Of a stretch of DNA of 64,000 nt, positions 13,498 to 38,830 are shown piece by piece (positions within the stretch are counted from its first letter, which is position 1; the number at the start of each line of letters is the position of its first letter). Source of the stretch: a virus (Duplodnaviria; Heunggongvirae; Uroviricota; Caudoviricetes); the IMG/VR virus record IMGVR_UViG_2623620416_000002, positions 41,253-105,252 of that record. One strand, given 5' to 3'. The position numbers and the translations under genes are program-made. The notes under the pieces were generated by a model. That model did not search any database. It was not told the DNA's origin and saw nothing but the letters and a program-made list of their open reading frames with translations.

Positions 13498-14036
13498 TAT
13501 AAATCCTCGTCTTCTTCGTCTTTCTTTTTAGAAGCTTCAGCTTCTTTAGCCGCCAAAGCATCTGCATCTAATGGATTATCCTCACCGTCACCAACAACTA
13601 TGCCGGCACGGCAAGTATAGTCTTTAACTTCATCGAATACGCCTGCAAGCATTGATTCAGTAATAATGTCTTGAAAGTTTGCTTCAATGTAATCGATTGT
13701 ATTTTCATCTAAATAAATAGGCTTAGCACTAGGATCTTTTTGCAAGATTACAGCTTTGCAGTGATGTTGATGCTCTTTCCAGATCATGCCTACTTGTTCA
13801 CACATTTCTTCAAATGTATAAGGTCCGCGGATTGTTGAGCAAACGAACTTGACACCGCTTCGCTCGCCCTGATTGACAGCAACAAGATATTGTTTGTCTT
13901 TTAATTCTGAGAGATCCATTGTTTCTAATTCACCAATGAAATCATCTCCAGACTTAACAGGTAAATTCATATTAGGTATTTGTTGCGACATAAGAGTACC
14001 TCCGAATGATATATTATTTCGGATTTTTAAGCTCAT
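13497..14036 (-). CDS. hypothetical protein with acidic C-terminal tail
   Basis: 179 aa ending …KKKDEEDEDL. Confidence 0.45.
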   Translation of the reverse strand: MSLKIRNNISFGGTLMSQQIPNMNLPVKSGDDFIGELETMDLSELKDKQYLVAVNQGERSGVKFVCSTIRGPYTFEEMCEQVGMIWKEHQHHCKAVILQKDPSAKPIYLDENTIDYIEANFQDIITESMLAGVFDEVKDYTCRAGIVVGDGEDNPLDADALAAKEAEASKKKDEEDEDL

Positions 14037-14772
14037 TATAAGAACGAGGTTGTCCGGAATATATAGCTGACCATTTAAAAACTAAATAATCAATATTAAA
14101 GATTTTGCCTTTAGAATCTTGTGCTGTTCCAAATACAACACCTTCTATTAACCTTGTGCCTTTATGAGAGATAGGAATAGGATCTAAAGTTAGTATAGTA
14201 AAATATGATTTAACTGATTTATAAACTACATCTCCAACTTTAAGAGACTTAAGATAGTTTAATAAGGCTGCATTATTTCGCCAATCGATTTTAAGCTTTT
14301 TATTGTGCTCTGTGATTTCTTTAAAAGTTTTACTTTTAATCTTATGTGCTTCAGAGGCATCATAATTTTCTTCATCAGAAAGAATAATTGCATCTTCATA
14401 GTCTGGGTCTACTTCAAACTCAAAATCAGAAGGATTAATCATCCTATGTCCACCGTCAAATCTTAGTGGAGATAGTAAGTTTCCAACTGGGTTACCCTTC
14501 TTATTTAATTCCTTGATATAAGGCACGCCAAACCTACATGTATGAATAACAACATATTTTCTTGGCGCGCCATAAGAATTTGTAACTTGTTTTCGCTTAC
14601 TATAGTGCGTTTGAGGTTGAAAAGCAATTAAAAAATCACCCACTTTAAATTTAGCAGCATCTTTTAAACCACCCATGATAGAGGCAATTATTTCTTCTCT
14701 TTCTCTAATATAAGAGAGCTCATTAGGTTCTAGTGTTTTAGCTTTTTTCGCCATATAACATCTCTTCTTCAA
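14014..14772 (-). CDS. hypothetical protein, paralogue of 11665–12465
   Basis: See the 11665 entry. Confidence 0.5.
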   Translation of the reverse strand: MKKRCYMAKKAKTLEPNELSYIREREEIIASIMGGLKDAAKFKVGDFLIAFQPQTHYSKRKQVTNSYGAPRKYVVIHTCRFGVPYIKELNKKGNPVGNLLSPLRFDGGHRMINPSDFEFEVDPDYEDAIILSDEENYDASEAHKIKSKTFKEITEHNKKLKIDWRNNAALLNYLKSLKVGDVVYKSVKSYFTILTLDPIPISHKGTRLIEGVVFGTAQDSKGKIFNIDYLVFKWSAIYSGQPRSYNELKNPK

Positions 14773-15264: not shown

Positions 15265-16062
15265 TTACATTTCTCCAAGCATCTTTTTTACCATCTCTTC
15301 ATTACGCTCATAAATATGTAAGGAATGAACAGTGTGGGTGTAATGCCCTTTTTTAAGATTAGGGTAATGTGGTTTTAATTCTTCAATCATTTTGTCCATT
15401 AATCCACAAAACCACGGAAGATCATAAACTAATCCAAGTGTGAGATCATTAGAACGCATTACAACAGACAGGTGAAGCTCATCATTACGGATAAGGAAAT
15501 TACCATGCATTGTGCACGTTTGATCCTTATTGCCCTTCCATTGATGTTCTGGCAATGAAAATCGCAATATTGCTTGTCTTGTATCTTTATCGTCAATTAA
15601 AGATTGTCTTGCCCATTCCCATGGGGTTCTTCTGACTGGTCGAACTTGGGAGATTGTACCTTCGCCTGGCTTGGTAGATGGGTGTGTAACATAAGTCTCA
15701 GTTTCGAAATCAGATCCGTGGGAACGCTTGCTCCAGATAAGGTGACCGTAGGCCGAATTGACTGTGCCGTCAGGATTCGCAAGAGAGAGCCAAAATTTTG
15801 AGGCTCTTCCAAAATCCTCAGCCTTGTTAGTGCAGGAATCGTAAAGTTCGACCTCTTTGGCAGTATAGCTTGCAATTGTTCTGTTGCGTTCGGAATCTTT
15901 AGTAACGATAGCAGCATCAGTAGGTTGCAATACACGAAAAGTGTAGTCGAGTTTTTCTCTACATGGTTGTCCGCGAGGAGACGACTTAACATCTGGGTTG
16001 AAATAGACATCTGCGAGAGTTCCGAGATAGGCTTCTGAGACATTATTGTATACTTTCATCAT
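15265..16062 (-). CDS. thymidylate-synthase-superfamily pyrimidine hydroxymethylase, T4 gp42-like (probably dCMP hydroxymethylase)
   Basis: Blocks matching T4 gene 42: E(V)ELYDS, KFWLSLANPDGTVNSAYGHLIWS (T4 KIWQQVASSKGEINSNYGWAIWS), DQTCTMHGNFLIRND (T4 DFMCTNTVQYLIRDK), VVMRSNDLTLGLVYD (T4 VVNMRSNDVVFGFRND; the Asp that confers cytosine specificity is conserved), SLHIYERN. Confidence 0.65.
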   Translation of the reverse strand: MMKVYNNVSEAYLGTLADVYFNPDVKSSPRGQPCREKLDYTFRVLQPTDAAIVTKDSERNRTIASYTAKEVELYDSCTNKAEDFGRASKFWLSLANPDGTVNSAYGHLIWSKRSHGSDFETETYVTHPSTKPGEGTISQVRPVRRTPWEWARQSLIDDKDTRQAILRFSLPEHQWKGNKDQTCTMHGNFLIRNDELHLSVVMRSNDLTLGLVYDLPWFCGLMDKMIEELKPHYPNLKKGHYTHTVHSLHIYERNEEMVKKMLGEM

Positions 16063-16086: not shown

Positions 16087-16788
16087 CTAATATTCTTTTG
16101 TCATTAGTTCTAGTTCTGCCGAGTAAATATTACTTCTAATTAGTTCTGTAAAGAATAGGCTTTGATAACCATCTATCTCAAAACCTTTTTTAATATATTT
16201 GGTTAAGCGCCTAATTGTACACCCACGTGGAACAGGATTAAAGGCAAGTCTTTTGGCAGTTGAATCTTCAATTGCACCTTTAACTACATATAAAGTCATA
16301 GTTGATATGTCAATTGCCATAGAGCATGCACGAATATCAAATCTAGATATAAGGTGCTCAGGAGATTTATAGTCGACACCATAAATCAAATTAAACTTAA
16401 GTCCCTCTATGTAACCGTAAGAGCACATTATATTATCGAATGATGAAAAAAGGTGATGTTGAGCGTTATTCATAGTTAAGAATAACTGAGCATCTGCCTT
16501 AGATTTAAAGTATACATCAACATCGTCGTATGCATGATTTATATTACCTATATGATGAGCAACATGATGCATGACAAATGATCCAGAAACTAAAGCGCCT
16601 GGAGGAAAATTAAAGTTACATGTGGCATTGATTTGCGTAGTAAGCACTTCTACGTTTGCATCATAGTCTTCCACTAACATGGCAGACCCAAGATGGTTAA
16701 TTTGTTCATCAAATAGATCCTTACCTGATTTAAGTAAGGATCCACTTAATGGAACAAAGAATTTAGGATTGTGCTTCCAAAAGTCCAT
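16087..16788 (-). CDS. hypothetical protein; weak nucleotidyltransferase-fold signature (GS…DDVDV)
   Basis: GSFVMHHVAHHIGNINHAYDDVDVYF; spacing is atypical, so this is only a suggestion. Confidence 0.3.
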   Translation of the reverse strand: MDFWKHNPKFFVPLSGSLLKSGKDLFDEQINHLGSAMLVEDYDANVEVLTTQINATCNFNFPPGALVSGSFVMHHVAHHIGNINHAYDDVDVYFKSKADAQLFLTMNNAQHHLFSSFDNIMCSYGYIEGLKFNLIYGVDYKSPEHLISRFDIRACSMAIDISTMTLYVVKGAIEDSTAKRLAFNPVPRGCTIRRLTKYIKKGFEIDGYQSLFFTELIRSNIYSAELELMTKEY

Positions 16789-26558: not shown

Positions 26559-28049
26559 TTATTTAATATGGGCCTGAATACGAGCTCTAATATCAGAGAA
26601 ATTTTCATCAATAAGAAGTGTTCCATTGCGGAAAACCTCACGAAGCATATCGCCTTTAATAACATCATCAAGGCTTAATCCATCACGAACCATATAGCTA
26701 TCACCATCTTTAAGAACCGCAACGCGACCCTTTTGAGACTTCTTAGTTCCATCATCAGTCTTAGGATTCTTAAATATTTGCTTCTCAATACCATCGATAA
26801 CACATAGCGTTGATTTAAGAGCGTATCCAAAAGTATCACGAGTGTTGTATTGATAAGTATAAGATCCAATACCAAATACTACATTAGTTGAAGCAAAGCC
26901 TTTAGCTTCCAATCGACTCATGATCTCTTCAGCTCGTTTAAGAGTGATAGCATCGCCATAGATCAATCCAATATGAGAGTCCAATACTTTGTATCCAGTT
27001 GCACTCTCTGTTCCTCCAAAGATCTCATAGAGACATTCGATTGCACCCTTATATTCTGGTGTTCCAACTGGAGCAGAAGGATCACCGCATACGATTAGTA
27101 CAGGATCACCAGAGTCAGGGCGAATAACAACCTTATCGCCAACTGGTCCACCTTTTCTAGCTATGATCTCTTTCTTCAATGAAGGAATAACACGTGTTAT
27201 AACATCCCAGAAATCATAACCATCAGAAACAATTGATACGATTCCTGAAGGATGAACCTCTGAAAGCATTCGCTTAAGATACTTGGCATCATCGCCGTAT
27301 GCGCACTGAATTGAGTGCTCAGTAGCTGGAACAGAAGTTCCAACAAGTTCTTTCTCAACGTTTGCATTATAGTAGTATTCAGCTGCAGAGATAGCAGGGA
27401 TGGTATCAGTTCCAGCAAAGCCAGCAACTAAGTGACCCATACCGCTCAAGATAGCTGAACGAAGGCTAGACATGCCACGCATAGAGAAGTCATGACCTTG
27501 AAAGATCGTAAATGCAACTGCTTCAGGGTGAGTAGCTAATGCAAATTCATCCATCATGCGCTTATACTCAATAGCAAGAGTTGCAGATGTAGATGGTTGC
27601 CACAACTCACACGAAGCCAAAGACTCAATGAAGTTTGTTAACCAGAAGAAGCGTGGATCTGTGTTTTGAATGGTAAGGGTAGGAACGCGAGTTGGAACAA
27701 TAGTTCCTTCAGGAAGAGCTTTGATTGATAAAGGTAAGTAGCCAAGATCATGAAGATCTTCTAAGTGTTTTGTCTCAGGATTTGGATCACCTAATGTAGC
27801 TTTGATCAATCGCTTATATTCAGCGATGACATCAGCTTTAGGGCGATTAAAGAAGTGCTCTTGGAATACATCCAAAAGATATTCTTTGATAAATGCTTGT
27901 GTGCCGAAGGCAACCACATTATCAACACCTTTTATTCTGCTTGTTCTTGGGGTCCACGTAGAGTAGACAACTTCGGTTCCCTCTGGATACATTGCGCGAT
28001 GGGCAATTTTATAGAAATCACAAAGGGTGGGTACGATCACTTGTTTCAT
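26559..28049 (-). CDS. nadV: nicotinamide phosphoribosyltransferase (NAMPT/NadV) homologue; alternatively a Namat-type NAD+ reconstitution enzyme
   Basis: 496 aa; N-terminus VPTLCDFYKIAHRAMYP (NAMPT LNTDSYKVTHY block) and NAPRTase-family length and composition. Confidence 0.75.
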   Translation of the reverse strand: MKQVIVPTLCDFYKIAHRAMYPEGTEVVYSTWTPRTSRIKGVDNVVAFGTQAFIKEYLLDVFQEHFFNRPKADVIAEYKRLIKATLGDPNPETKHLEDLHDLGYLPLSIKALPEGTIVPTRVPTLTIQNTDPRFFWLTNFIESLASCELWQPSTSATLAIEYKRMMDEFALATHPEAVAFTIFQGHDFSMRGMSSLRSAILSGMGHLVAGFAGTDTIPAISAAEYYYNANVEKELVGTSVPATEHSIQCAYGDDAKYLKRMLSEVHPSGIVSIVSDGYDFWDVITRVIPSLKKEIIARKGGPVGDKVVIRPDSGDPVLIVCGDPSAPVGTPEYKGAIECLYEIFGGTESATGYKVLDSHIGLIYGDAITLKRAEEIMSRLEAKGFASTNVVFGIGSYTYQYNTRDTFGYALKSTLCVIDGIEKQIFKNPKTDDGTKKSQKGRVAVLKDGDSYMVRDGLSLDDVIKGDMLREVFRNGTLLIDENFSDIRARIQAHIK

Positions 28050-28116
28050 AGCATAATCTCCTATGCATGTTTATGTTGCGCCCTAATATCCAAAGAGGGC
28101 GTTGTTTATATTATAC

Positions 28117-28398
28117 TTAATCTTTTCGTAAGTTCTTGGCTTCTGTTGTAATATAGTTAACAGTAACGTTAGGGCAAGTTACATCATACAGAGTTACTGT
28201 ATCGTTATTATAGTCCATATCTAAATACTGAGTCGCAACTCCACTACAGCCCTTATAAAAGCCAGTTTTTACATGATAAATTTGTCCAATACTAATGCCT
28301 AGTGATTCAGCAGAATCTGAATTGCGACCAGGGATGCGATCAGAGTTACCTGTACAACTGATAAGAAAGCCTACAAATACAATAGCTATTAATCTCAC
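28117..28398 (-). CDS. small lipoprotein
   Basis: Signal peptide plus lipobox FLISC-TGNS. Confidence 0.45.
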   Translation of the reverse strand: MRLIAIVFVGFLISCTGNSDRIPGRNSDSAESLGISIGQIYHVKTGFYKGCSGVATQYLDMDYNNDTVTLYDVTCPNVTVNYITTEAKNLRKD

Positions 28399-28610
28399 TT
28401 TGCCTCCTTATAAGTGCAAACATTTTTAACCATAATTTGCCAGCATGCTTGTTTATTACTTAAAGCTTCTTTAGAACATTCATTAACAAGCTTTTCTAAA
28501 CTTTGAAGTTGCTCTTGATTGCAATAATAATTACTGCTATTTTCACGGCCGCAACCAACTAATACTAAACTTAAAAGTATGAAATATTTCATTTTGCCTC
28601 CGGATCGCAC
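28395..28610 (-). CDS. small lipoprotein, Cys-rich
   Basis: Lipobox LVGC-GRENSS. Confidence 0.4.
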   Translation of the reverse strand: MRSGGKMKYFILLSLVLVGCGRENSSNYYCNQEQLQSLEKLVNECSKEALSNKQACWQIMVKNVCTYKEAK

Positions 28611-29092
28611 ACAATCCAGTTAATTCTTTTAAAGTCTTTGAGAACTGTTTTAAGGATCAATTCGGAATCTTGCCATGGGACATTGAATAAGCCTGAGTTG
28701 AATTTATTAGAATAAACATTGATTGTTTCATGTTCATCTTTTGGATGGGCCATATAGATTTTCTTACATAGCTCCATTAAAGCCATTGTGGTATGTATTT
28801 TAATTAACTCAGGTGAATCTTTTAATTCACCATAATTGTGCGAAGTAACAATCCATCCAACCCAGTGAGCCTCAGATGTATGGAATGTGGATAAAGAAGC
28901 TCTACCGCAAGCAGAACCTCTAGATTTATTAGCATTAATGCAAAAGCTATTGTAGTCAATAAAGCTAAACGGATACTTTTCCTTAAACGGTTTAGCAATA
29001 CCAGAACCCCAAACACCCTGAGAATTACAGGCATGAATTATTACTGATTCAGCTGGAGCATCAAATAAAGATATGTTTTGATAACTTATCAC
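28589..29092 (-). CDS. macro-domain protein (ADP-ribose binding/processing)
   Basis: VIIHACNSQGVWGSGIAKPF matches the macro-domain core (IVNAANxxLxGGGGV). Confidence 0.55.
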   Translation of the reverse strand: MISYQNISLFDAPAESVIIHACNSQGVWGSGIAKPFKEKYPFSFIDYNSFCINANKSRGSACGRASLSTFHTSEAHWVGWIVTSHNYGELKDSPELIKIHTTMALMELCKKIYMAHPKDEHETINVYSNKFNSGLFNVPWQDSELILKTVLKDFKRINWIVCDPEAK

Positions 29093-29307
29093 TTAAGCTC
29101 CTTTAATATTTGTTTTAATACTTTTACTTTAGCTAAGTTTTCAATATCGTCTTCTAATTCGTCTTTACCTCTGTCATAGTTCATAAAACATTCATCTATG
29201 TAGAATTGAATAGCTTCTTTTAGAAGTTTTGTTTTATTTATTTTTGTTTGACATTGAATAGATTTGCCATTAAACTTTTTAATTGTTACTTTTACTTTTA
29301 CTACCAT
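29089..29307 (-). CDS. hypothetical small protein (72 aa)
   Basis: ORF coupled between the macro and Prs-like genes. Confidence 0.35.
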   Translation of the reverse strand: MVVKVKVTIKKFNGKSIQCQTKINKTKLLKEAIQFYIDECFMNYDRGKDELEDDIENLAKVKVLKQILKELK

Positions 29308-30107
29308 ATTTTAAAACCCTCAGGATTACGTAGTAGACTATTAGTTGTGTATACATTTTTGATGCCAGCATCATGAAGAACTTGTCTGCCTTTGCTAAAT
29401 AATCCATGGCTCACTACTAAGTTTATCTCTTTAGTCTTAAACTCTCTTAAATATTCTGCAACCTTAATGAAGGTCATTCCGCCATCGCAAATGTCATCTA
29501 CGATTAATAGATTTTCGTCACGTAAATTTAAACCTTGTGGATTTATCATTTTAATGCCAGTGATAACACCTGTTAATTGATCTCTAACTTTTTCAAAATA
29601 AATGTAAGGCATATAGCTTAGGTTTTTATATCGCTCAGCAGCACCTTTATCTGGAAAGCAAACTATGCTTGCTTTAGATACATCTAAAATATGCTCATGA
29701 AATTCAGTTACTTTAGGAAGCCCAGTGAATGCATCTTCGTATACCATAGAGGTTTTAGAGTGGGCATCAAATGTTTCAATGCGAGTGATATTTGCATTGT
29801 GCATAATCTCTTTAAATACATGTAAGGCAAATGATAACTTATTATCAAGAGCTTTATCTTGGCGGCCATAAGGTAAGTAAGGAACTCTTAGCGTGCATGT
29901 GTCTGCATTAAGAACTCTTTGAACTAGCATAGCGAGCTGAACTACATGCATCACTTCAGCTTCAGATTCAAACAGCCACAAGATTACAGGGTCATCGCCG
30001 TATGTATCATATACAACGTCTTCTAACTTCCAAACTTGAGAAGTACCATCGGGGAAAATTGTAGTCTCAAATTTAACTTCATTTCCATTAACTAAAAGTT
30101 TTACCAT
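29301..30107 (-). CDS. ribose-phosphate pyrophosphokinase (PRPP synthetase) family protein, short form (268 aa); possibly an ADP-ribose pyrophosphokinase (Adps)-type enzyme
   Basis: Prs motifs YLPYGRQDK (Prs YxRQDRK) and LLIVDDICDGGMT (PRPP-binding loop). Confidence 0.65.
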   Translation of the reverse strand: MVKLLVNGNEVKFETTIFPDGTSQVWKLEDVVYDTYGDDPVILWLFESEAEVMHVVQLAMLVQRVLNADTCTLRVPYLPYGRQDKALDNKLSFALHVFKEIMHNANITRIETFDAHSKTSMVYEDAFTGLPKVTEFHEHILDVSKASIVCFPDKGAAERYKNLSYMPYIYFEKVRDQLTGVITGIKMINPQGLNLRDENLLIVDDICDGGMTFIKVAEYLREFKTKEINLVVSHGLFSKGRQVLHDAGIKNVYTTNSLLRNPEGFKIW

Positions 30108-30298
30108 ATACCACTTCCATAAAGTAAGTAAAGAAAAAATAATATAGAGAAAGGACCTAGTGCGATAGAGAAGATAAAGCCACGCAGATAGCCCCAGAAA
30201 CTAGACTTATCAAACTTTGGTAGCTGATCTAATATGTAGCGAATTCTTAATAAAAGATACCAACCGATTAAGCCTAATACAACCCAAATGATTACCAT
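30101..30298 (-). CDS. small membrane protein (65 aa)
   Basis: Two hydrophobic helices. Confidence 0.3.
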   Translation of the reverse strand: MVIIWVVLGLIGWYLLLRIRYILDQLPKFDKSSFWGYLRGFIFSIALGPFSILFFLYLLYGSGIW

Positions 30299-30825
30299 GC
30301 TTGCGACCTTTCAGAGGGGTCGTTATTACCGTATCCCATTAGGAAATCTAAGTGACGCCACATAGCATCATGTGTTCCTGATTTATATAGCTTTTCTCTA
30401 AAGCCATCATATTCTTTAGCATACATTTTAATCTTGCCACCATCTCTTAAATCAATGCTGGCTTCTGTGTTTGCAATTCTATCTGCAAGCTTTAAAGTAA
30501 TAGCGTCATCAGACGCTTGAATTTTAGGGTAAGTTTTTTCATGTCGCTCTTTGCGATTTTTGCCTGGCTCATTTGTAACCCTTTGAACTAGATCAAGGGT
30601 GCGACGACCAAATGTAGCTTCAATGGCTAGTGGAGTTAATTCAGTATCTTCAAGAGAGTCATGCAACCAGCCAGCACATAACATATCTTTATCTGTAATT
30701 CCAAAACGAATAAGCACTGCAACTACATCTCCAAGATGTTTAATATAAGGAAATGTTCCATATTTTTGTTCTTTATGGGCCATTGAAGCTATAGCTTCAG
30801 CGGCTTGCAGTGCTTGCATATCCAT
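30292..30825 (-). CDS. HD-domain phosphohydrolase, RelA/SpoT-hydrolase (small alarmone hydrolase, Mesh1-like) type
   Basis: AHKEQKYGTFPYIKHLGDVVAVL…AGWLHDSLEDT…FGRRTLDLVQRVTN parallels the RSH hydrolase domain. Confidence 0.6.
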   Translation of the reverse strand: MDMQALQAAEAIASMAHKEQKYGTFPYIKHLGDVVAVLIRFGITDKDMLCAGWLHDSLEDTELTPLAIEATFGRRTLDLVQRVTNEPGKNRKERHEKTYPKIQASDDAITLKLADRIANTEASIDLRDGGKIKMYAKEYDGFREKLYKSGTHDAMWRHLDFLMGYGNNDPSERSQAW

Positions 30826-30941: not shown

Positions 30942-31325
30942 TTATTCCTCCGTTACAAGTTTTTGTTCAGTTACAATTTTATATTTCACATCTACCATAC
31001 ATCGATAGATATACCCATCTTTACAATCAGAAAAAGTCATGCCGCAAGCAATGTCATCGTCATTGCGATCGTAACATACTGTGTTACCGCTTTTAGTGCT
31101 TATATGATAAGCAAAAACTTCTTCATATTGAGGGCCTGATGGTTCTTGGGGTTCAGAGACATTAGAAGAGCTACTTCCAGAATCTCTATAAACAGAAAGT
31201 TGATTTTGACAAGTTTCAAGTTGTTCAGTGGTAAACCTAAGATCATGTTTAGCTGTACGCAACTCAGATGAGTTATCATTACAACCAGCAAGCAATAAAG
31301 TTAAAGCAAGAATTGTATATTTCAT
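30942..31325 (-). CDS. lipoprotein (127 aa) with Cys-rich C-terminal domain
   Basis: Lipobox LLAGC-NDNSS. Confidence 0.45.
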   Translation of the reverse strand: MKYTILALTLLLAGCNDNSSELRTAKHDLRFTTEQLETCQNQLSVYRDSGSSSSNVSEPQEPSGPQYEEVFAYHISTKSGNTVCYDRNDDDIACGMTFSDCKDGYIYRCMVDVKYKIVTEQKLVTEE

Positions 31326-31391
31326 GTGCTCTCCTAACTAGAAAAGGGACCTAGCTTTCGCTAGATCCCTATTGGAACCGATAAGATTATC

Positions 31392-32588
31392 TTATTTTTC
31401 TTTATTCATGCGCTCATTGATTCGCATGAAAGACTCAAGACCTACAGCGTCAAAAGGATTTGTTGATCCGCCTTTAGAATCACCACCAATGATTAACATG
31501 CCAGGAAATTGTACTTTAGCTAATTCAGCAGCAACACCAATTTTTGTTTCTTTATCAATTGTTGCGCGTTCAAGAGGTGTAAGACCAGCAGACACTTTCA
31601 ATCGATTGATCTCAGCAAGTGCTTTACCTTTTACGATATCTGCAGCAGCTTCCTCTTTAGCTTTTTGAGCGTTCAATTTAGCAACTTCAAATTCTTTTTG
31701 AGCGATAGTTACTTCTTTGATTTTCTCAACATCTTGATTAGCTTTTTCAGTAGCAATTCGCGCATTACCTTGTTCACGAGCAGTAATTGCATCCTGTTTA
31801 GCTCGCTCAGCGTTAGCTTGGGCAACAACTTTTTGTTGTTCAGCTTCTTTCTTTTTAGAGATTAAGGCATCAATAGTTTGATCAAAGTCGATATCTTTAA
31901 TAACAAACTGAATGATTTCAATACCATATTGTTTTAATGGAGAGTCTTTTCTAACAATAGGAAGACCTTTATCATTTCTGCTAATATTTACTTCTGCAAC
32001 AATAAACTCATTACCGTCTGCATCTTTTTCTTTAACACGTTTAGATACGGTTTCAAAGATACCTTCGACAATTTGGCTTTCAGCAAAGTCAGTAAATTCA
32101 GACCTACGAGTAGAGTAGGAATCTTCAGCGCGCATTAGAGGTGCAGTTTGCATAAGAGCCTCTGTAACCACTTGTCGCATTAAGTCGTGTTTAATGGCTT
32201 CAAAGTTCTTAAAATCTCGGTGTAAAGCTAATCGTTTTTCAGGATCTTGAGGTAATCGAAACTTCACCATTCCTGAGATTTCTGCCGTACCACCATCGTT
32301 AAACCTTACCTTAATTGCTTCCGCATTACTTTGATCTCCTCGGCTATCGCCTTCAGTCTTGCTGAAGTAATAAACGTCTGAGATTTGATAAGTCGTGATG
32401 TTTGCAAACATCTGCATGTATGTTCCAGGATCCGCTATAACAGTCATGCTACCTGTTACTGACGCTTGTTTGATCTGATAATAGCCAGCATTATTTGTCT
32501 CCAAAATCTGCTTGCCCACTGTAGCTAGTGTGATTACCAAGATCAGGGCGACTACTGCACCACCGATCAACTTAATACGATTGTCCAT
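31392..32588 (-). CDS. SPFH/band-7 (HflK/C, YqiK-like) membrane protein
   Basis: N-terminal TM, band-7 core, long C-terminal E/A/K/Q-rich coiled coil. Confidence 0.65.
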   Translation of the reverse strand: MDNRIKLIGGAVVALILVITLATVGKQILETNNAGYYQIKQASVTGSMTVIADPGTYMQMFANITTYQISDVYYFSKTEGDSRGDQSNAEAIKVRFNDGGTAEISGMVKFRLPQDPEKRLALHRDFKNFEAIKHDLMRQVVTEALMQTAPLMRAEDSYSTRRSEFTDFAESQIVEGIFETVSKRVKEKDADGNEFIVAEVNISRNDKGLPIVRKDSPLKQYGIEIIQFVIKDIDFDQTIDALISKKKEAEQQKVVAQANAERAKQDAITAREQGNARIATEKANQDVEKIKEVTIAQKEFEVAKLNAQKAKEEAAADIVKGKALAEINRLKVSAGLTPLERATIDKETKIGVAAELAKVQFPGMLIIGGDSKGGSTNPFDAVGLESFMRINERMNKEK

Positions 32589-32647: not shown

Positions 32648-32845
32648 CTATTTGCATTTAGCAATGCTGTAATTGCCAAATTGGTCGGCTGTGTACTTTA
32701 CAGTGGCACCAGATGTAAATTGTAAGTATACAACTCCATCGATACATATTTCAGATGCATTGCCAGTAAGTCTAGCCATAAATCTATCGACGCCACCGCA
32801 ACCAGATAAAGCTGTAACAGCTAATACTAAAACTAAAAACTTCAT
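32648..32845 (-). CDS. small lipoprotein (65 aa)
   Basis: Lipobox ALSGC-GG. Confidence 0.4.
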   Translation of the reverse strand: MKFLVLVLAVTALSGCGGVDRFMARLTGNASEICIDGVVYLQFTSGATVKYTADQFGNYSIAKCK

Positions 32846-33277: not shown

Positions 33278-33365
33278 TGGAGGAAAGCAACGGACTCGAA
33301 CCGTAGACCCCGAAGAGTCCGAAGTGTTTAGCAAACACCCTCCGCTCCTAGCGGATTTACTTTCC
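33278..33365 (-). tRNA. tRNA-Ser (GCT), type II (88 nt)
   Basis: Acceptor GGAAAGT/GCTTTCC; anticodon arm GGTGT-TTGCTAA-ACACT; long variable arm; T-loop TTCGAGT. Confidence 0.55.
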
Positions 33366-33366
33366 A

Positions 33367-33436
33367 TGGTAGTTCCATGAGGAGTCGAACCTCGTTAGCC
33401 AGATTAGAAGTCCGGCGACCGTCCATCGGTGGAACT
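33367..33436 (-). tRNA. tRNA-Arg (TCT)
   Basis: Perfect acceptor AGTTCCA/TGGAACT; anticodon arm CCGGA-CTTCTAA-TCTGG; T-arm CGAGG-TTCGACT-CCTC. Confidence 0.5.
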
Positions 33437-33440
33437 GAAG

Positions 33441-33517
33441 TGGTGCTCGACCTCGGATTCGAACCGAGACTTGACCGATTTTAAGCCGGTTGCCTCTGCC
33501 AGTTGGGCTAGTCGAGC
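33441..33517 (-). tRNA. tRNA, class-I length, anticodon TAA (Leu-type anticodon), A73
   Basis: Perfect acceptor GCTCGAC/GTCGAGC; anticodon arm ACCGG-CTTAAAA-TCGGT; T-arm CTCGG-TTCGAAT-CCGAG. Confidence 0.5.
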
Positions 33518-33519
33518 AT

Positions 33520-33608
33520 TGGTGTATGTTGAAGGAGTTGAACCATTCGTCGCCCGCTCGTTTGTTTAATGACCTCTGTTTTACAGACAGATAACGAGAA
33601 CAACATAC
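33520..33608 (-). tRNA. tRNA-Tyr (GTA), type II, with degenerate T-stem
   Basis: Perfect acceptor GTATGTT/AACATAC; anticodon arm TCTGT-CTGTAAA-ACAGA; long variable region. Confidence 0.45.
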
Positions 33609-33610
33609 GT

Positions 33611-33703
33611 TGGAGGAAGGCTAGAGAATCGAACTCTCGACGTGGTCTTAGCACGTCGCGCTAGTTTTCAAGACTAGTTGCACACCATTGCGCCGAACCT
33701 TCC
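33611..33703 (-). tRNA. tRNA-Ser (TGA), type II (93 nt)
   Basis: Acceptor GGAAGGT/GCCTTCC; anticodon arm CTAGT-CTTGAAA-ACTAG; T-loop TTCGATT. Confidence 0.55.
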
Positions 33704-33728
33704 AATTTGTTTTTGATTTAATAAAGGA

Positions 33729-33742
33729 GCTAAGAGTGGGTC
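33729..33742. repeat. left arm of a perfect 14-bp inverted repeat (GCTAAGAGTGGGTC)
   Basis: Exact reverse complement of 34127–34140. Confidence 0.7.
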
Positions 33743-34126
33743 TATAAGCGGCGTTCTGTTCTTGCACTATCATTCGTCTTGTTTGTAAGTTGCCTTACAA
33801 ATCTTTGCCCATAACCCGATGACTAGGCGAGTAGCCTCATTGTCATCCTATTTACAGTTGCTGCGCGTACGCTGTCGCCCGTTTCACCCGTTATCACTAA
33901 CTATCCAGCAGCGTTTCCGGATTATCAGTCCGGTGCTTTCCTACTCTTAGCCGCTTCTGGCGCCGCAATTTGAAGTTGCCCTCAAATTACCCCATGCTGC
34001 GTTTATAACGATTCGTCTCTGTTGCCGTCGCTCACCTCGCGGTGGAAGGGAATTACCCTCTACGCTTACTCTATGCAGCCCCGACTTTCCTCACTCACCG
34101 TATTGCACGGATATGCGCGATAGTCC

Positions 34127-34140
34127 GACCCACTCTTAGC
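34127..34140. repeat. right arm of the 14-bp inverted repeat (GACCCACTCTTAGC)
   Basis: See the left arm. Confidence 0.7.
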
Positions 34141-34185
34141 GAAATTATTATACTTTCAGATCTCCTTCATTAATTTGTTTAAAGT

Positions 34186-34261
34186 TGGTGCAACCTCTCA
34201 GAATCGAACTTACTTTACCTGTGCTTCAAACAGGAGTCATGACCACATCTACGAAAGTTGC
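34186..34261 (-). tRNA. tRNA-Phe (GAA), weak T-stem
   Basis: Acceptor GCAACTT/AGGTTGC; anticodon arm CCTGT-TTGAAGC-ACAGG; T-loop TTCGATT; ACCA. Confidence 0.45.
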
Positions 34262-34593
34262 ATATCTAATTTTTCGTGTTCTTCAGCGTGACAATTAGCA
34301 CAAAGTAAAACACATTTATCTAATTCTTCTTTAAGTTTATGCCATGCCCTGGTTTCACCCTTACCACCTATGCCAAACTCTTTTTGAGCAGGATCTAGAT
34401 GATGAAATTGTAAAGCATTCATCGACTTATCGTAACCACAACGGCTACACTTACTTCCTTTATATTCAACTGCTTTTAACTTTAATCGTTTTCTAGCTAG
34501 CTGAGTGTTATTATTGTTTCTACATCTGATAGAGCAAAATTTCTCTTGCGCTCCAGTTAACTCATTACTACAATGTTTATATGTACATTTCAT
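34249..34593 (-). CDS. HNH endonuclease (third paralogue)
   Basis: CSRCGYDKSMNALQFHHLDP…CVLLCANCHAEEH. Confidence 0.6.
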   Translation of the reverse strand: MKCTYKHCSNELTGAQEKFCSIRCRNNNNTQLARKRLKLKAVEYKGSKCSRCGYDKSMNALQFHHLDPAQKEFGIGGKGETRAWHKLKEELDKCVLLCANCHAEEHEKLDMQLS

Positions 34594-34613
34594 GTTATTT
34601 TTATACGAAAGTA

Positions 34614-34690
34614 TGGCTGTGAGAGTTGGGATCGAACCAACCTAGTCTTGATTAACAGTCAAGCGCAGTCACCCTGATTGCTATCTCACA
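34614..34690 (-). tRNA. tRNA-Asn (GTT)
   Basis: Acceptor TGTGAGA/TCTCACA; anticodon arm CTTGA-CTGTTAA-TCAAG; T-arm GTTGG-TTCGATC-CCAAC; GCCA. Confidence 0.5.
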
Positions 34691-37662: not shown

Positions 37663-38136
37663 CTATTTTACCAGATCTTTTAGATACTCAGTGGCCGCTA
37701 TTGTTAGCTTAGGGTCATCCTTTAATAGTCCAATTGCTGTATTGCAATCGCTACATAGTAATCCACGAATTTTACCTGTAGTATGACAATGATCTACAGC
37801 TAAGGCCTTAGTTAACTCAGATTGATGTGTTTTACATATTTTGCAGCAATTTGATTGGTTTAACAGCATTTTATCGTAAATAGAGGTATCGATCCCATAA
37901 TTTCTTTTTAGTGTTGAATTTCTATTACTCGATTTATGTTTCTCTGGGTTTCGCTCTTTCCAAGATCTTGCTATAGCATTAAACTTATCTGGATTATTCT
38001 TTCTCCATTCTAAATTCCTAGCCTGAGCGCAAGCTTTACAGTGAGAACTATAGCCATCTTTACGACGACTATCCTTTTTAAAATCTTTTAATTCTTGAGA
38101 AACTAAACATGAAGTGCATGTTTTATGGCCAAGCAT
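37663..38136 (-). CDS. HNH endonuclease (endonuclease VII-type)
   Basis: CKICK…AVDHCHTTGKIRGLLCSDCNTAIG. Confidence 0.65.
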   Translation of the reverse strand: MLGHKTCTSCLVSQELKDFKKDSRRKDGYSSHCKACAQARNLEWRKNNPDKFNAIARSWKERNPEKHKSSNRNSTLKRNYGIDTSIYDKMLLNQSNCCKICKTHQSELTKALAVDHCHTTGKIRGLLCSDCNTAIGLLKDDPKLTIAATEYLKDLVK

Positions 38137-38830
38137 AAATAACCTCTCTGGTTCTTACCTCAATAGCACATAATGGTGCCTTTGGTGAGCATCCGGCTCC
38201 AGCGTCAGCATAGATATAATGGTCATAGAAGCGCGGATGTAATTGGCCCTTGCGAATGGCATGAATGTGCCCACAAACTCCTATAACGCCATTCCCGTGA
38301 TCTCTGGCCATGCCAAATTCATCACCCACTCCATCCCAGATTCCCCAACAATACTCATCATCAGTAATAGGTAAACCTTGATTCAATGTGTTCCTACGGT
38401 TTTCTCGTGGCACGGGGGCATGACTAAAGAAGAAGCCAGGCTCTTCGTGTTTAAAAGGTAGGTGAGATAACCATTGTAAGTGGTCATGTGTCATACTATG
38501 GAAACCAGCTAGTTGATAACTAAGTAAAGTTGCCTGCCCACCATTATTATCATGCATCCAGATGTCATCTTGACTTTTGCGGGCATAATACATGATATTG
38601 ATCCACTCATGGTTACCTGCTAAGCAAATTACATTATTTGGATATGTTTCTTGAAGGTTTTTAAGGAAGCAAATAACTCCGTAAGAGTCAGGGCCTCTAT
38701 CTACATAGTCACCTGTGAAGATGACTTTGTCAGTAGATAGGTCTAATTTATGATTAGTTATAAGATCATCCCAAAGTTTTTTTAGTAGATCTAATCGTCC
38801 ATGTATATCAGCAATGCAGTAAAGTTTCAT
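38123..38830 (-). CDS. PPP-family Ser/Thr protein phosphatase (metallophosphoesterase)
   Basis: GDxHG (ADIHG), GDxxDRG (GDYVDRG), GNHE. Confidence 0.75.
   Translation of the reverse strand: MKLYCIADIHGRLDLLKKLWDDLITNHKLDLSTDKVIFTGDYVDRGPDSYGVICFLKNLQETYPNNVICLAGNHEWINIMYYARKSQDDIWMHDNNGGQATLLSYQLAGFHSMTHDHLQWLSHLPFKHEEPGFFFSHAPVPRENRRNTLNQGLPITDDEYCWGIWDGVGDEFGMARDHGNGVIGVCGHIHAIRKGQLHPRFYDHYIYADAGAGCSPKAPLCAIEVRTREVIYAWP

What the first reader, a model, noticed from the sequence alone, without database searches (positions are those of the whole stretch)
26559..30825. NAD+/ADP-ribose module: NAMPT homologue, macro domain, short PRPP-synthetase-like enzyme and an HD alarmone-hydrolase-like protein on one strand; candidate NAD+ reconstitution (anti-defence) pathway
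Seen: a 496-aa NAMPT-family ORF, a macro-domain ORF, a 268-aa Prs-family ORF that keeps the RQDK and DDxxDGG motifs, and an HD-domain RSH-hydrolase-like ORF, all co-oriented within 4.3 kb with small lipoproteins between them. Established: phages either salvage NAD+ via NadV (NAMPT) plus an NMNAT (KVP40-type), or rebuild NAD+ from ADP-ribose and nicotinamide using a Prs-like ADP-ribose pyrophosphokinase (Adps) plus a NAMPT-like transferase (Namat), which counters NAD+-depleting defences such as Thoeris, DSR and SIR2-type systems. Inference: no NMNAT is visible here, the Prs-like protein is shorter than canonical Prs, and a macro domain (an ADP-ribose handler) lies between the two genes. That favours an ADPR-based reconstitution route, possibly with an extra ADP-ribose-processing step that the published two-gene system does not have.
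Basis: partly seen in the sequence, partly recalled or inferred. Interest (0 to 1): 0.75.

Follow-up and report, generated by a model that had tools for sequence, protein, structure and literature searches.

The report
Phage NAD+ rebuilding operon with phosphatase
An uncultured large phage carries a gene cluster predicted to rebuild the cofactor NAD+ from the fragments left when bacterial defences destroy it; it is a new example of a phage counter-defence pathway first published in 2024–2026, not a new kind of system.

Summary
Window 26559–30825 (minus strand) holds a tightly overlapping operon: an HD/small-alarmone-hydrolase-like gene, a Prs-like gene, a macro-domain gene and a NAMPT-family gene. 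Small lipoprotein or membrane ORFs lie between them. The NAMPT homologue is a Namat. It is 59.5% identical to the crystallised SpβL1 Namat, carries the exact Namat-only motif GSYTYQYNTRD, and matches 23 of 24 NAD+-contact residues. The Prs-like protein behaves like validated Adps. It has the remodelled PP loop DDICDGGMTF and the catalytic Lys, lacks the Prs C-terminal helices, and scores below every Prs cutoff. The macro protein's nearest solved structure is yeast Poa1p, an ADP-ribose-1''-phosphate phosphatase, and its family is homologous to the published phage Adpp family (hhalign 97.7%). The gene order Adps–macro–Namat matches NARP1-AP, published in January 2026, which counters RES-type NAD+ phosphorylases. 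No NMNAT was found in the 80.7 kb of the 146.6 kb contig that I could read. Two things are not described. The HD gene is conserved immediately upstream of adps throughout this phage lineage, and its role is unproven. A sister lineage has a Nampt-type transferase in place of Namat. No biochemistry was possible.

The parts
26559..28049 (-). Namat (nicotinamide ADP-ribose transferase), 496 aa. It is the last gene of the unit.
   Evidence: phmmer gives 639 bits to PDB 9W5X/9W5W (SpβL1 Namat), against 196-222 bits to human and Xanthomonas Nampt. BLASTP gives 59.5% identity to SpβL1 Namat, 40% to Gary Namat and 34% to KVP40 Nampt. The SCH motif GSYTYQYNTRD fits GS-X-Φ-X-Φ-X-Φ-TRD. 23 of 24 SpβL1 NAD+-contact residues are identical, and F392Y matches ICP1 Namat.
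28117..28398 (-). 93-aa predicted lipoprotein (lipobox LISC). It is a window-specific insertion between the macro and Namat genes.
   Evidence: Lipobox and 4-nt overlap with the upstream gene. No family hit. Absent from relatives L017, L018 and L008.
28395..28592 (-). 65-aa predicted lipoprotein (lipobox LVGC).
   Evidence: Lipobox and ATGA overlap with the macro stop codon. The gene call on the source contig is 65 aa. There is a weak EexN-family lipoprotein hit, 5.9e-4, below cutoff. Not conserved in relatives.
28589..29092 (-). Poa1p-like macro-domain protein, 167 aa. It is the predicted ADP-ribose-1''-phosphate phosphatase (Adpp-like).
   Evidence: PF01661 1.2e-7. Hits phrog_335 'phosphatase' over the same profile region as the validated Gary Adpp. 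Best PDB sequence hit is Poa1p 6LFT at 4.8e-9. AF2 model has pLDDT 94.7. The six best Foldseek hits are all Poa1p, E about 1e-13, TM 0.76-0.78. hhalign against the Adpp family gives 97.7%, E 2.5e-12. Poa1p H23 and F152 equal window H20 and F136, both invariant in the family.
29089..29307 (-). 72-aa basic ORF of unknown function between adps and the macro gene.
   Evidence: It overlaps both neighbours, by 7 and 4 nt. No family hit. No homologue in relatives; L018 has an unrelated 81-aa ORF at the same position.
29301..30107 (-). Adps-like protein (ADP-ribose pyrophosphokinase of the Prs family), 268 aa.
   Evidence: Scores phrog_619 203 bits and TIGR01251 102.5 bits, below the 113 cutoff. The validated Gary and SpβL1 Adps score the same way (278/99.9 and 248/106). 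PP loop is DDICDGGMTF, against ICP1 DDICDGAASF and Prs DD[IM]I[SD]TGGT. ICP1 F18, R87, H121, D161 and K185 are conserved. There is no C-terminal α11-α12. Leave-one-out HMM scores are 83-102 bits against 36-72 for Prs. It is sister to validated Adps in an NJ tree.
30101..30298 (-). Possible 65-aa two-helix membrane ORF between HD and adps. It may not be a real gene.
   Evidence: 7-nt overlaps at both ends and a hydrophobic profile. It is not called on the source contig and is absent in relatives, where HD abuts or overlaps adps.
30292..30825 (-). Stand-alone HD-domain small-alarmone-hydrolase (SAH/MESH1)-like protein, 177 aa. It is conserved immediately upstream of adps in this lineage.
   Evidence: PF13328 HD_4 39.8 bits, above the 27.2 cutoff; phrog_990 5e-42. 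PDB sequence hits are RelH 7QOC at 2.7e-13 and MESH1 at 5e-9. AF2 model has pLDDT 93.6, and the top Foldseek hits are RelH, the human MESH1-NADPH complex (TM 0.77) and P. aeruginosa SAH. H30, H55-D56, E59-D60, D115 and N119 are invariant in 31 homologues. Synteny is shown.
30942..31325 (-). 127-aa predicted lipoprotein (lipobox LAGC). It may be the first gene of the transcription unit.
   Evidence: Lipobox. A 37%-identical homologue occupies the same position in L018. It lies just downstream of the terminator-like hairpin.
31345..31370 (-). Terminator-like hairpin (11-bp stem, 6 G-C pairs, T-rich tail) after the SPFH gene. It is the likely upstream boundary of the unit.

Best explanation
This is a NARP1-AP-type NAD+ reconstitution operon of an uncultured large phage. 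The source contig is 146.6 kb, has about 37% GC and carries 18 tRNA genes in this window.

Inferred mechanism, taken from the characterised homologues:
1. Host defences cleave NAD+. SIR2, TIR and SEFIR enzymes give ADPR plus nicotinamide. RES-type phosphorylases such as aRES give ADPR-1''-phosphate plus nicotinamide.
2. The Poa1p-like macro protein removes the 1''-phosphate to give ADPR.
3. The Adps-like enzyme transfers the β,γ-pyrophosphate of ATP to the 1''-OH of ADPR, making ADPR-PP.
4. [quoted passage not shown]

What is shown here: the gene content, gene order and operon structure; residue-level agreement of Namat and Adps with published structural determinants; and the Poa1p-type fold of the macro protein.

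What is inferred: all enzymatic activities and the anti-defence phenotype.

The HD/SAH-like gene at the head of the operon is most likely a separate counter-defence or metabolic enzyme. It may hydrolyse alarmones or tRNA 3'-pyrophosphates, as the phage SAHs that neutralise toxSAS toxins do. It would then be co-located and co-transcribed with NARP1-AP rather than an obligate pathway step. The interspersed lipoprotein ORFs are lineage-specific insertions unrelated to NAD+.
For: Namat:
- 639 bits to the SpβL1 Namat structures against about 200 to Nampts.
- Exact SCH motif and conserved SCL Arg.
- 23 of 24 contact residues identical.

Adps:
- Its profile scores match those of validated Adps, and all are below the Prs cutoffs.
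- Adps-type PP loop, the K185 equivalent, and loss of the C-terminal helices.
- Leave-one-out HMM test and NJ tree.
- Namat lies 5 ORFs downstream. The published criterion is within 10 genes, which 97% of Adps-clade genes meet.

Macro:
- Poa1p is the top hit by sequence and by structure.
- Homologous to the published Adpp family.
- It sits between adps and namat, as in Vibrio phage Gary.
- JGI names many homologues ADP-ribose 1''-phosphate phosphatase.

Operon: 4-7 nt overlaps, and a terminator-like hairpin upstream only.

The block is conserved in L017, L018 and L006-8.

No NMNAT in the window or flanks.

Published function of NARP1 and NARP1-AP.
Against: - No enzyme assay or phenotype is available.
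- The Prs-like protein keeps the Prs-type RQDK, where validated Adps have RADR or RMDR. It has Leu at the ICP1 F92 position. It scores slightly higher on a small Prs HMM (83 bits) than validated Adps do (59-70).
- It is only about 28-31% identical to any validated Adps.
- The macro protein has no significant direct BLASTP similarity to Gary Adpp, and Poa1p S30 is not conserved.
- A close relative (L005) carries the macro gene without adjacent NARP genes.
- A sister lineage (L006-8) pairs the same Prs-like, macro and HD genes with a transferase that has a Nampt-type clamp region. The Prs-like enzyme's substrate could therefore be less settled than the motif suggests.
- 45% of the contig was not readable.
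Confidence: 0.75

Rival explanations
1. Canonical salvage (NARP2-like). The Prs-like enzyme makes PRPP from ribose-5-phosphate. The NAMPT homologue makes NMN. An NMNAT, either from the host or encoded in the unread part of the phage genome, completes NAD+.
For: The RQDK motif is retained, and the score on a Prs HMM is slightly higher than for validated Adps. Relatives L006-8 pair an orthologous Prs-like gene (56% identity) with a transferase whose clamp region is Nampt-like, GVGGLLLQSHSRDD. Namat retains some PRPP activity in vitro. 45% of the contig is unread.
Against: The window transferase has the full Namat clamp and is 59.5% identical to a crystallised Namat, against 34% to KVP40 Nampt. 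The Prs-like protein lacks the Thr of the Prs TGGT 5-phosphate loop and has the Adps PP loop. It falls below every Prs family cutoff, as validated Adps do. No NMNAT was found in 80.7 kb.
Confidence: 0.08
2. The macro protein is not part of NAD+ reconstitution. It would reverse ADP-ribosylation of DNA, RNA or protein (against DarT-like or other ADP-ribosyltransferase defences), or clear Appr-1''-p arising from Tpt1-type RNA repair. On this view it merely sits in an anti-defence gene cluster.
For: TARG1 and DarG macrodomains are the next-best structural neighbours, at 6e-10 and 2e-9. There is a weak N-terminal hit to the DarG model. Relative L005 has the macro gene without neighbouring NARP genes. 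Myxococcus phage Mx1 has a 31%-identical macro gene that is not next to an Adps or Namat gene.
Against: Poa1p, a dedicated ADPR-1''-P phosphatase, is the closest match by both sequence and fold. The gene lies between adps and namat with overlapping reading frames, as in the validated Gary operon. The macro and Adps-like families share at least 35 contig lengths of 7 kb or more, that is 24 + 11. No Tpt1 homologue is in the window.
Confidence: 0.12
3. The HD/SAH-like protein is a fourth enzyme of the pathway that feeds ADPR or NAD+ pools. Three activities are conceivable:
- MESH1-like removal of the 2'-phosphate from NADP(H).
- Removal of the 2'-phosphate from 2'-phospho-ADPR.
- Opening ADPR-1'',2''-cyclic phosphate, the decay product of ADPR-PP, to a monoester that the macro phosphatase can clear.
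For: HD lies immediately upstream of adps, or overlaps it, in the window, L017 and L006-8. In L018 only a NADAR (NAD/ADP-ribose-associated) gene lies between them. 24 contigs are shared by all three families. The best TM-score is to the human MESH1-NADPH complex. Bacterial SAH and Mesh1 hydrolyse NADPH to NADH. There are precedents for NARP1 accessory enzymes that convert ADPR derivatives to ADPR, namely Adpp and RyDEP.
Against: Homologues occur in 207 cultured phages. The nearest of these (a Nodularia phage), as well as L011 and L014, have no NARP genes nearby. The validated NARP1 operons of Gary and ICP1 have no HD gene. Phage SAHs already have a demonstrated independent role against toxSAS toxins. 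Synteny within one phage lineage can simply be inherited.
Confidence: 0.15

Closest known systems
NARP1-AP (Adps-Adpp-Namat) of Vibrio phage Gary (Osterman et al., bioRxiv 10.64898/2026.01.28.702374)
   Same: It has the same three enzyme families in the same order, Adps then macro phosphatase then Namat, on one strand. The macro protein is Poa1p-like. Namat carries the same clamp motif, GSFTYQYVTRD in Gary and GSYTYQYNTRD here.
   Different: The proteins are distant: Adps 31% and Namat 40% identical, and the macro proteins are related only at profile level. The window's macro protein resembles yeast Poa1p more than Gary-type Adpp does, with HACNSQGVWGSGIA and NSGLFNVPW. The window operon also has an HD/SAH-like gene upstream and three small ORFs inserted (a 72-aa ORF and two lipoproteins). 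The host and phage type are different and uncultured.
NARP1 of Bacillus phage SpβL1, E. coli phage Bas63 and Vibrio phage ICP1 (Osterman et al. 2024; PMC12774641; PMC13586617)
   Same: Namat is 59.5% identical to SpβL1 Namat, and all catalytic and adenine-clamp residues are conserved. The Adps PP loop DDICDG is identical to ICP1 over six residues, and the catalytic Lys is conserved.
   Different: Those are two-gene operons with no macro or HD gene. The window's Adps keeps RQDK and lacks the F92 aromatic residue.
NARP2 of Vibrio phage KVP40 (NadV/Nampt + NatV/Nmnat)
   Same: A NAMPT-family enzyme in a phage used to restore NAD+.
   Different: No Nmnat was found. The window enzyme has the Namat clamp region, not the Nampt one (KVP40 has GMGGGLLQQLDRD), and is only 34% identical.
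Yeast Poa1p (PDB 6LFQ-6LFU), ADP-ribose-1''-phosphate phosphatase
   Same: It is the closest solved structure (TM 0.76-0.78, E about 1e-13) and the closest PDB sequence. The residues probed in the deposited mutants, H23 and F152, are conserved.
   Different: Identity is 21-24%. Poa1p S30 is Val here. The cellular role of Poa1p is in tRNA-splicing by-product clearance.
Stand-alone small alarmone hydrolases: phage PVP-SE1 and SSU5 SAHs, C. glutamicum RelH, P. aeruginosa SAH, and metazoan MESH1
   Same: It has the same single-domain HD_4 fold and the metal and catalytic motifs H, HD, ED and D..N. Phage SAHs are known to neutralise toxSAS toxins.
   Different: Identity to solved SAHs is only 22-28%. 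The substrate is unknown. Its conserved position at the head of a NARP1-AP operon is not described in the papers I could read.

Membership tests
Namat (NARP1 second enzyme) | NAMPT/NAPRTase fold with conserved catalytic core. In SpβL1 numbering: D13', Y15', F189, R192, D215, R306, D308 and the catalytic His in ATEHS. | tested here: met
   All are identical in the alignment with SpβL1 Namat. PF04095 and PF18127 are above their cutoffs.
Namat (NARP1 second enzyme) | Selectivity-clamp helix motif GS-X-Φ1-X-Φ2-X-Φ3-TRD, with aromatic X, which is absent from Nampt (PMC12774641). | tested here: met
   The window has GSYTYQYNTRD. KVP40 Nampt has GGGLLQQLDRD and the L008 relative has GGLLLQSHSRD at the same columns.
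Namat (NARP1 second enzyme) | Selectivity-clamp loop that supplies a stacking Arg, Lys or Tyr (SpβL1 R40). | tested here: met
   The PRTSR loop is identical to SpβL1, and the Arg aligns with R40.
Namat (NARP1 second enzyme) | Closer to validated Namats than to PRPP-using Nampts. | tested here: met
   639 bits to 9W5X against 196-222 to Nampts. Identity is 59.5%, 47% and 40% to the SpβL1, ICP1 and Gary Namats, against 34% to KVP40 Nampt.
Namat (NARP1 second enzyme) | Prefers ADPR-PP over PRPP and forms NAD+ directly. | not testable with these tools
   This needs an enzyme assay.
Adps (NARP1 first enzyme) | Remodelled PP loop (ICP1 C215-S220, DDICDGAASF) in place of the Prs 5-phosphate loop DD[IM]I[SD]TGGT (PMC13586617). 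| tested here: met
   The window has DDICDGGMTF, with Cys at 215, Gly rather than Thr at 217, and Phe at 221. E. coli, Sulfolobus and Methanocaldococcus Prs have Ile, Thr and Ile/Met/Leu at those positions.
Adps (NARP1 first enzyme) | Catalytic β-hairpin Lys (ICP1 K185) and conserved acceptor residues R87, H121, D161, D212, D213 and D216. | tested here: met
   All are conserved in the alignment. These residues are shared with Prs, so they show an active enzyme but not its specificity.
Adps (NARP1 first enzyme) | Adenine contacts F18 (from the neighbouring protomer) and F92. | tested here: inconclusive
   F18 is conserved, but it is also present in Prs. Position 92 is Leu in the window, and it is a gap in the validated SpβL1 Adps, so this position is not diagnostic.
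Adps (NARP1 first enzyme) | Loss of the Prs C-terminal α11-α12 regulatory/filament module; short protein. | tested here: met
   268 aa, ending where ICP1, Gary and SpβL1 Adps end. E. coli Prs extends about 40 residues further. Archaeal class III Prs are also short, so this alone is not decisive.
Adps (NARP1 first enzyme) | Falls in the phage Adps clade, separate from cellular Prs. | tested here: met
   Profile behaviour is the same as validated Adps: phrog_619 at about 200-280 bits, and TIGR01251 at about 100-107 bits, below the 113 cutoff. Leave-one-out HMM scores are 83-102 bits against 36-72 for Prs. It is sister to validated Adps in a 10-sequence NJ tree. The tree is small, so support is modest.
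Adps (NARP1 first enzyme) | A Namat homologue within ten genes. | tested here: met
   Namat lies five ORFs downstream in the same operon.
Adps (NARP1 first enzyme) | Pyrophosphorylates ADPR and not ribose-5-phosphate. | not testable with these tools
   This needs an enzyme assay.
Adpp / NARP1-AP | Macro-domain protein whose closest characterised homologue is Poa1p. | tested here: met
   PF01661 is above its cutoff. Poa1p is the top hit by phmmer (4.8e-9) and by Foldseek (8e-14, TM 0.76-0.78).
Adpp / NARP1-AP | Encoded within the NARP1 operon. | tested here: met
   It lies between adps and namat, with reading frames overlapping its neighbours. The same position is seen in L017, L018 and L006-8.
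Adpp / NARP1-AP | Homology to the published Adpp set (Table S1 of the preprint). | tested here: met
   hhalign gives 97.7%, E 2.5e-12, over 141 columns. It hits the same phrog_335 region as Gary Adpp, at 38.6 against 170.6 bits. Direct BLASTP to Gary Adpp is not significant, so this is a distant branch.
Adpp / NARP1-AP | Dephosphorylates ADPR-1''-phosphate and rescues NARP1 from aRES. | not testable with these tools
   This needs an enzyme assay and plaque assays.
NARP2 (Nampt + Nmnat) | An Nmnat gene in the same phage genome. | tested here: not met
   There is no (H/T)xGH NMNAT motif in six frames of the window. There are no tblastn hits with the KVP40 or Mx1 NMNAT in the window or flanks. 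No cytidylyltransferase Pfam is listed in the flanks. Only 80.7 of 146.6 kb could be read.
NARP3 (PnuC-like + NadR-like) | A NadR-like bifunctional NMNAT/NR kinase next to a PnuC transporter. | tested here: not met
   No NMNAT-type motif is present in the window. PnuC was not searched for specifically.
Small alarmone hydrolase (RSH hydrolase domain) | HD_4 domain with the metal and catalytic motifs H, HD, ED and D..N. | tested here: met
   PF13328 scores 39.8, above the 27.2 cutoff. H30, H55, D56, E59, D60, D115 and N119 are invariant in 31 homologues. The top fold matches are all SAH/MESH1.
Small alarmone hydrolase (RSH hydrolase domain) | Hydrolyses (p)ppGpp, (p)ppApp or tRNA 3'-pyrophosphate. 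| not testable with these tools
   This needs an enzyme assay.

The most novel reading that the evidence does not exclude
In this phage lineage NARP1-AP may have gained a fourth, HD/SAH-type enzyme that widens the set of NAD+ breakdown or side products that can be recycled. It could strip the 2'-phosphate from NADP(H) or from 2'-phospho-ADPR, as MESH1 does with NADPH. Alternatively, it could open ADPR-1'',2''-cyclic phosphate so that the macro phosphatase can return it to ADPR. Related observations fit an 'NAD island' into which ADPR-processing modules are swapped: a NADAR gene inserted at the same spot in L018, and a Nampt-type transferase swapped in beside the same Adps-like gene in L006-8.
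Probability: 0.15. Interest if true: 0.7.

Novelty: new member of a known kind. Interest (0 to 1): 0.4.

Why it matters
It extends NARP1-AP, so far validated only for Vibrio phage Gary, to an abundant uncultured lineage of phages of about 150-180 kb. It also extends it to a macro-phosphatase branch that simple sequence search with the validated Adpp does not find. That matters for annotating anti-defence content in viromes.

The published residue rules (the Namat clamp motif and the Adps PP loop) classified these proteins cleanly here. This is a useful independent test of those rules on distant sequences.

The conserved HD/SAH gene and the relatives with a Nampt-type transferase next to an Adps-type enzyme are concrete, cheap targets for experiments on how NAD+ reconstitution pathways diversify.

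Tried and rejected
- **Megablast of the region against 50,697 phage records** found only a conserved stretch of about 50 nt in Bacillus phage nadV genes. There is no close cultured relative.
- **Direct BLASTP of the macro protein against Gary Adpp** was not significant. tblastn against phages did not recover any published Adpp phage. The link needed profile and structure comparison.
- **The Poa1p structure paper** is not in the library. I could only use the residue names in the PDB entry titles.
- **PDB 9KE8/9KEO**, the second-best hit to the transferase at 503 bits, could not be identified from the literature.
- **NARP3** was considered and dropped. It is a PnuC + NadR system.
- **NMNAT, Tpt1 and NADAR homologues** were sought in the window and flanks, and none was found.
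- **The promoter scan** was uninformative, with 16 sites against 23 expected from shuffles.
- **An HD gene near the validated NARP1 operons** of Gary and ICP1 was looked for, and none was found.
- **The precomputed 'Gad2' label** on a neighbouring gene was not reproduced by my Pfam scan.
- **The remaining 45% of the source contig** could not be read, because look-ups are limited to 10 kb around window genes.

Full report
**Observation.**
- The 496-aa ORF (26559-28049) matches the NAPRTase/NAMPT families: PF04095 6.8e-40, NAMPT_N 1.6e-6, phrog_448 1.4e-191.
- The 167-aa ORF (28589-29092) matches Macro: PF01661 1.2e-7.
- The 268-aa ORF (29301-30107) matches the phosphoribosyltransferase/Prs families: phrog_619 7.8e-60.
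- The 177-aa ORF (30292-30825) matches HD_4 (PF13328 4.9e-10) and the N-terminal hydrolase part of the RelA/SpoT model.

Small ORFs between these genes carry lipoprotein signal sequences: LVGC, LISC, and LAGC upstream. Every consecutive pair of genes from HD to the 93-aa lipoprotein overlaps by 4-7 nt. A strong terminator-like hairpin lies just upstream, after an SPFH/Band-7 gene, and none lies inside the cluster. This is therefore one compact operon.

The window belongs to a 146,573-bp metagenomic contig (Logan SRR29904084; also NCBI WGS LNFM01). It has about 37% G+C and carries 18 tRNA genes, ribonucleotide reductase, DNA ligase and tail-fibre-like genes, so it is a large phage. It has no close cultured relative at the DNA level.

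**What is published.** Four papers define the relevant systems.
- NARP1 is Adps plus Namat. Adps is a Prs-like enzyme that pyrophosphorylates ADP-ribose. Namat is a NAMPT-like enzyme that joins ADPR-PP to nicotinamide. NARP2 is Nampt plus Nmnat, as in KVP40 (bioRxiv 10.1101/2024.02.11.579819).
- A January 2026 preprint (10.64898/2026.01.28.702374) shows that RES-domain defence proteins (aRES) cleave NAD+ to nicotinamide and ADPR-1''-phosphate, which NARP1 cannot use. It also shows that about 15% of NARP1 operons carry a Poa1p-like macro-domain phosphatase, Adpp, that converts ADPR-1''-P to ADPR. The three-gene operon Adps-Adpp-Namat of Vibrio phage Gary, named NARP1-AP, overcomes aRES.
- PMC12774641 gives the structural rule that separates Namat from Nampt.
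- PMC13586617 gives the rule that separates Adps from Prs.

**The transferase is a Namat.**
- Against all PDB sequences, the window protein scores 639 bits on 9W5X/9W5W, which are the SpβL1 Namat structures. It scores only 196-222 bits on human, rodent and Xanthomonas Nampts.
- It is 59.5% identical to SpβL1 Namat, 47% to ICP1 Namat, 40% to Gary Namat and 34% to KVP40 Nampt.
- The Namat-specific clamp helix motif GS-X-Φ-X-Φ-X-Φ-TRD is present as GSYTYQYNTRD.
- The clamp loop PRTSR, with the stacking Arg, is identical to SpβL1.
- 23 of the 24 residues that contact NAD+ in the crystal structure are identical. The exception is F392Y, which is also found in ICP1 Namat.
- KVP40 Nampt differs at positions 190, 362 and 391-398.

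**The Prs-like protein behaves as an Adps.** I calibrated the profile libraries with the validated enzymes:

| Protein | phrog_619 (bits) | TIGR01251 (bits; cutoff 113) |
|---|---|---|
| Gary Adps (validated) | 278 | 99.9 |
| SpβL1 Adps (validated) | 248 | 106 |
| Window protein | 203 | 102.5 |

All three are far below every Prs equivalog cutoff.

I aligned the window protein with the structurally characterised ICP1 Adps, the Gary and SpβL1 Adps, E. coli Prs and two archaeal Prs.
- The window protein has the Adps PP loop: DDICDGGMTF, against ICP1 DDICDGAASF. All three Prs have DD[IM]I[SD]TGGT followed by Ile, Met or Leu.
- It has the catalytic β-hairpin Lys and the conserved acceptor residues.
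- It ends where Adps proteins end, without the Prs C-terminal helices.
- In leave-one-out HMM tests it scores 83-102 bits. That is as high as the held-out validated SpβL1 Adps (84 bits) and above Prs proteins (36-72 bits). It is sister to the validated Adps in a small NJ tree.

There are reservations. It keeps the Prs-type RQDK, where validated Adps have RADR or RMDR. It has Leu at the ICP1 F92 position, which is also not conserved in SpβL1. It is only about 28-31% identical to any validated Adps.

**The macro protein is Poa1p-like.**
- Its best PDB sequence hits are the yeast Poa1p entries, at 4.8e-9.
- An alignment-based AlphaFold2 model is confident, with mean pLDDT 94.7. Its six best Foldseek matches are all Poa1p (E about 1e-13, TM 0.76-0.78), ahead of TARG1 and DarG.
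- Two of the three residues mutated in the deposited Poa1p structures, H23 and F152, correspond to H20 and F136, which are invariant in 33 family members. The third, S30, is not conserved.
- Direct BLASTP to Gary Adpp is insignificant. A profile-profile comparison of this family with eleven published Adpp sequences gives 97.7% probability, E 2.5e-12, over 141 columns. Both proteins hit the same region of phrog_335.
- JGI's pipeline names many homologues 'ADP-ribose 1''-phosphate phosphatase'.

So this is a distant branch of the same family, in the same operon position as in Gary.

**Conservation.** Homologues of the Prs-like, macro and HD proteins are numerous in metagenomes, often on contigs of about 125-180 kb. 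Twenty-four contig lengths of at least 7 kb are shared by the top-120 lists of all three families. This is a proxy for co-occurrence, not proof of it. I read four arrangements directly:
- L017 has SPFH-HD-Adps-macro-Namat. Its Namat is 85% identical and has the same motif.
- L018 has the same, with a NADAR-domain gene (PF08719, 8.5e-45) between HD and adps.
- L006-8, three IMG/VR contigs, have the same except that the transferase is only 40% identical and has a Nampt-type clamp region, GVGGLLLQSHSRDD.
- L005 has the macro gene alone.

The window's small ORFs (the 72-aa ORF, the 65-aa and 93-aa lipoproteins, and the possible 65-aa membrane ORF) are not conserved in these relatives.

**NMNAT.** None was found by any of these tests:
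- a motif scan of all six frames of the window;
- tblastn with the KVP40 and Mx1 NMNATs against the window and the two 10-kb extensions;
- the Pfam labels of genes in those extensions.

This covers record positions 34348-115028 of 146,573. The rest could not be read.

**The HD protein.** It is a stand-alone small-alarmone-hydrolase-type enzyme.
- HD_4 scores above its cutoff.
- The motifs H30, H55-D56, E59-D60, D115 and N119 are invariant in 31 homologues.
- The model is confident (pLDDT 93.6). Its best structural matches are C. glutamicum RelH, the human MESH1-NADPH complex (highest TM, 0.77), P. aeruginosa SAH and Drosophila Mesh1.

Published work shows two relevant things. Phage SAHs from PVP-SE1 and SSU5 neutralise all tested toxSAS toxins (PMC7229694). 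A bacterial SAH and Mesh1 also hydrolyse NADPH to NADH (PMC9765508).

The gene is always directly upstream of adps in this lineage. Against a pathway role, homologues occur in 207 cultured phages without that context. The nearest of these is a Nodularia phage, and L011 and L014 also lack it. The validated NARP1 operons of Gary and ICP1 have no such gene.

I therefore treat it as a co-transcribed but probably independent counter-defence or metabolic enzyme. I give a direct role in NAD+ reconstitution about 15%.

**Verdict.** The cluster is best read as a NARP1-AP operon: macro phosphatase, then Adps, then Namat. The activities are inferred from residue-level agreement with structurally and biochemically characterised homologues, not shown. 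It is a new, divergent member of a known system in an uncultured phage lineage.

The main rival, canonical PRPP-based salvage, is weakened by the Namat clamp, the Adps PP loop and the absence of an NMNAT. It is not eliminated, because a sister lineage combines the same Prs-like gene with a Nampt-type transferase and because part of the genome is unread.

Two features go beyond the papers I read: the conserved HD/SAH gene, and the swapping of modules (NADAR, Nampt-type transferase, lipoproteins) at this locus.

Noticed in passing
L008:7725-9152 (also L006, L007; IMG/VR UViG_3300030518_000005 and two others): A sister phage lineage keeps orthologous SPFH, HD, Adps-like (56% identity, same DDICDGGMTF loop) and macro genes. 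Its downstream NAMPT-family gene, however, is only 40% identical and has a Nampt-type clamp region (GVGGLLLQSHSRDD) instead of the Namat motif. An Adps-type enzyme paired with a transferase lacking the clamp is not what the published rules predict.
   Followed up: partly
L018:3788-4276: In another relative, a NADAR-domain gene (PF08719, 8.5e-45) is inserted between the HD gene and adps. NADAR is a domain associated with NAD and ADP-ribose metabolism. The window has no NADAR homologue.
   Followed up: partly
L005:7001-7516 (IMG/VR UViG_3300036768_000388): The closest IMG/VR relative of the macro protein (82% identity) sits without any Adps, Namat or HD gene in the 14.5 kb read. So the macro gene is not always linked to NARP1 in this group.
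   Followed up: partly
L012:2441-7504 and 13013-14098: A distant relative has an SPFH gene, then a 395-aa NAPRTase-like gene (NF006415, 98 bits, below cutoff), then an HD homologue (43% identity). Further on is a 361-aa ORF that by eye resembles an isochorismatase/nicotinamidase (no family hit). This hints that NAD-salvage genes of different kinds occupy the SPFH-HD interval in related phages.
   Followed up: partly
L011:4344-4913: In a 318-kb viral contig, an HD homologue (46% identity) lies about 2 kb from an ORF that by eye looks like an RNA 2'-phosphotransferase (Tpt1/KptA). That enzyme's by-product leads to ADPR-1''-phosphate. This was not verified with a family search.
   Followed up: no
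window 32648-32845, 30942-31325, 28395-28592, 28117-28398 (all minus strand): Four small ORFs with lipoprotein signal peptides (LSGC, LAGC, LVGC, LISC) lie within 5 kb, two of them inside the NAD operon. One has a weak EexN-family (entry-exclusion lipoprotein) hit. They may be superinfection-exclusion or receptor-masking genes.
   Followed up: partly
window 31392-32588 (minus strand): A 398-aa SPFH/Band-7 membrane protein (PF01145, 1.4e-14) is conserved immediately upstream of the HD gene in all relatives read, including the distant L012. A terminator-like hairpin separates it from the NAD operon.
   Followed up: partly
window 16087-16788 (minus strand): The precomputed annotation of the source contig labels this 233-aa gene PF26128 (Gad2, a Gabija anti-defence protein). 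My own Pfam scan found no family at E <= 0.001, so the label is unverified.
   Followed up: partly
window 20740-25980 and 33278-34690: There are eighteen tRNA genes in two clusters flanking the NAD operon. Four of them are on the opposite (+) strand at 25231-25980. A 149-aa Cys-rich ORF on the minus strand (25442-25891) partly overlaps tRNA-Lys.
   Followed up: no
PDB 9KE8/9KEO: A PDB entry named only 'Nicotinamide phosphoribosyltransferase' is the second-best match to the window Namat (503 bits, far above true Nampts). It is therefore probably another Namat, but I could not find its source in the literature held.
   Followed up: partly
window 38123-38830, 15265-16062, 59196-59879, 60030-62721, 53759-54688: Other auxiliary genes in the window are a calcineurin-like phosphoesterase, a thymidylate-synthase-like gene and a ThyX gene, both ribonucleotide reductase subunits, and an ATP-dependent DNA ligase. 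The flanks hold ClpP-like and subtilisin/trypsin-like proteases. All this is typical of a large lytic phage.
   Followed up: no
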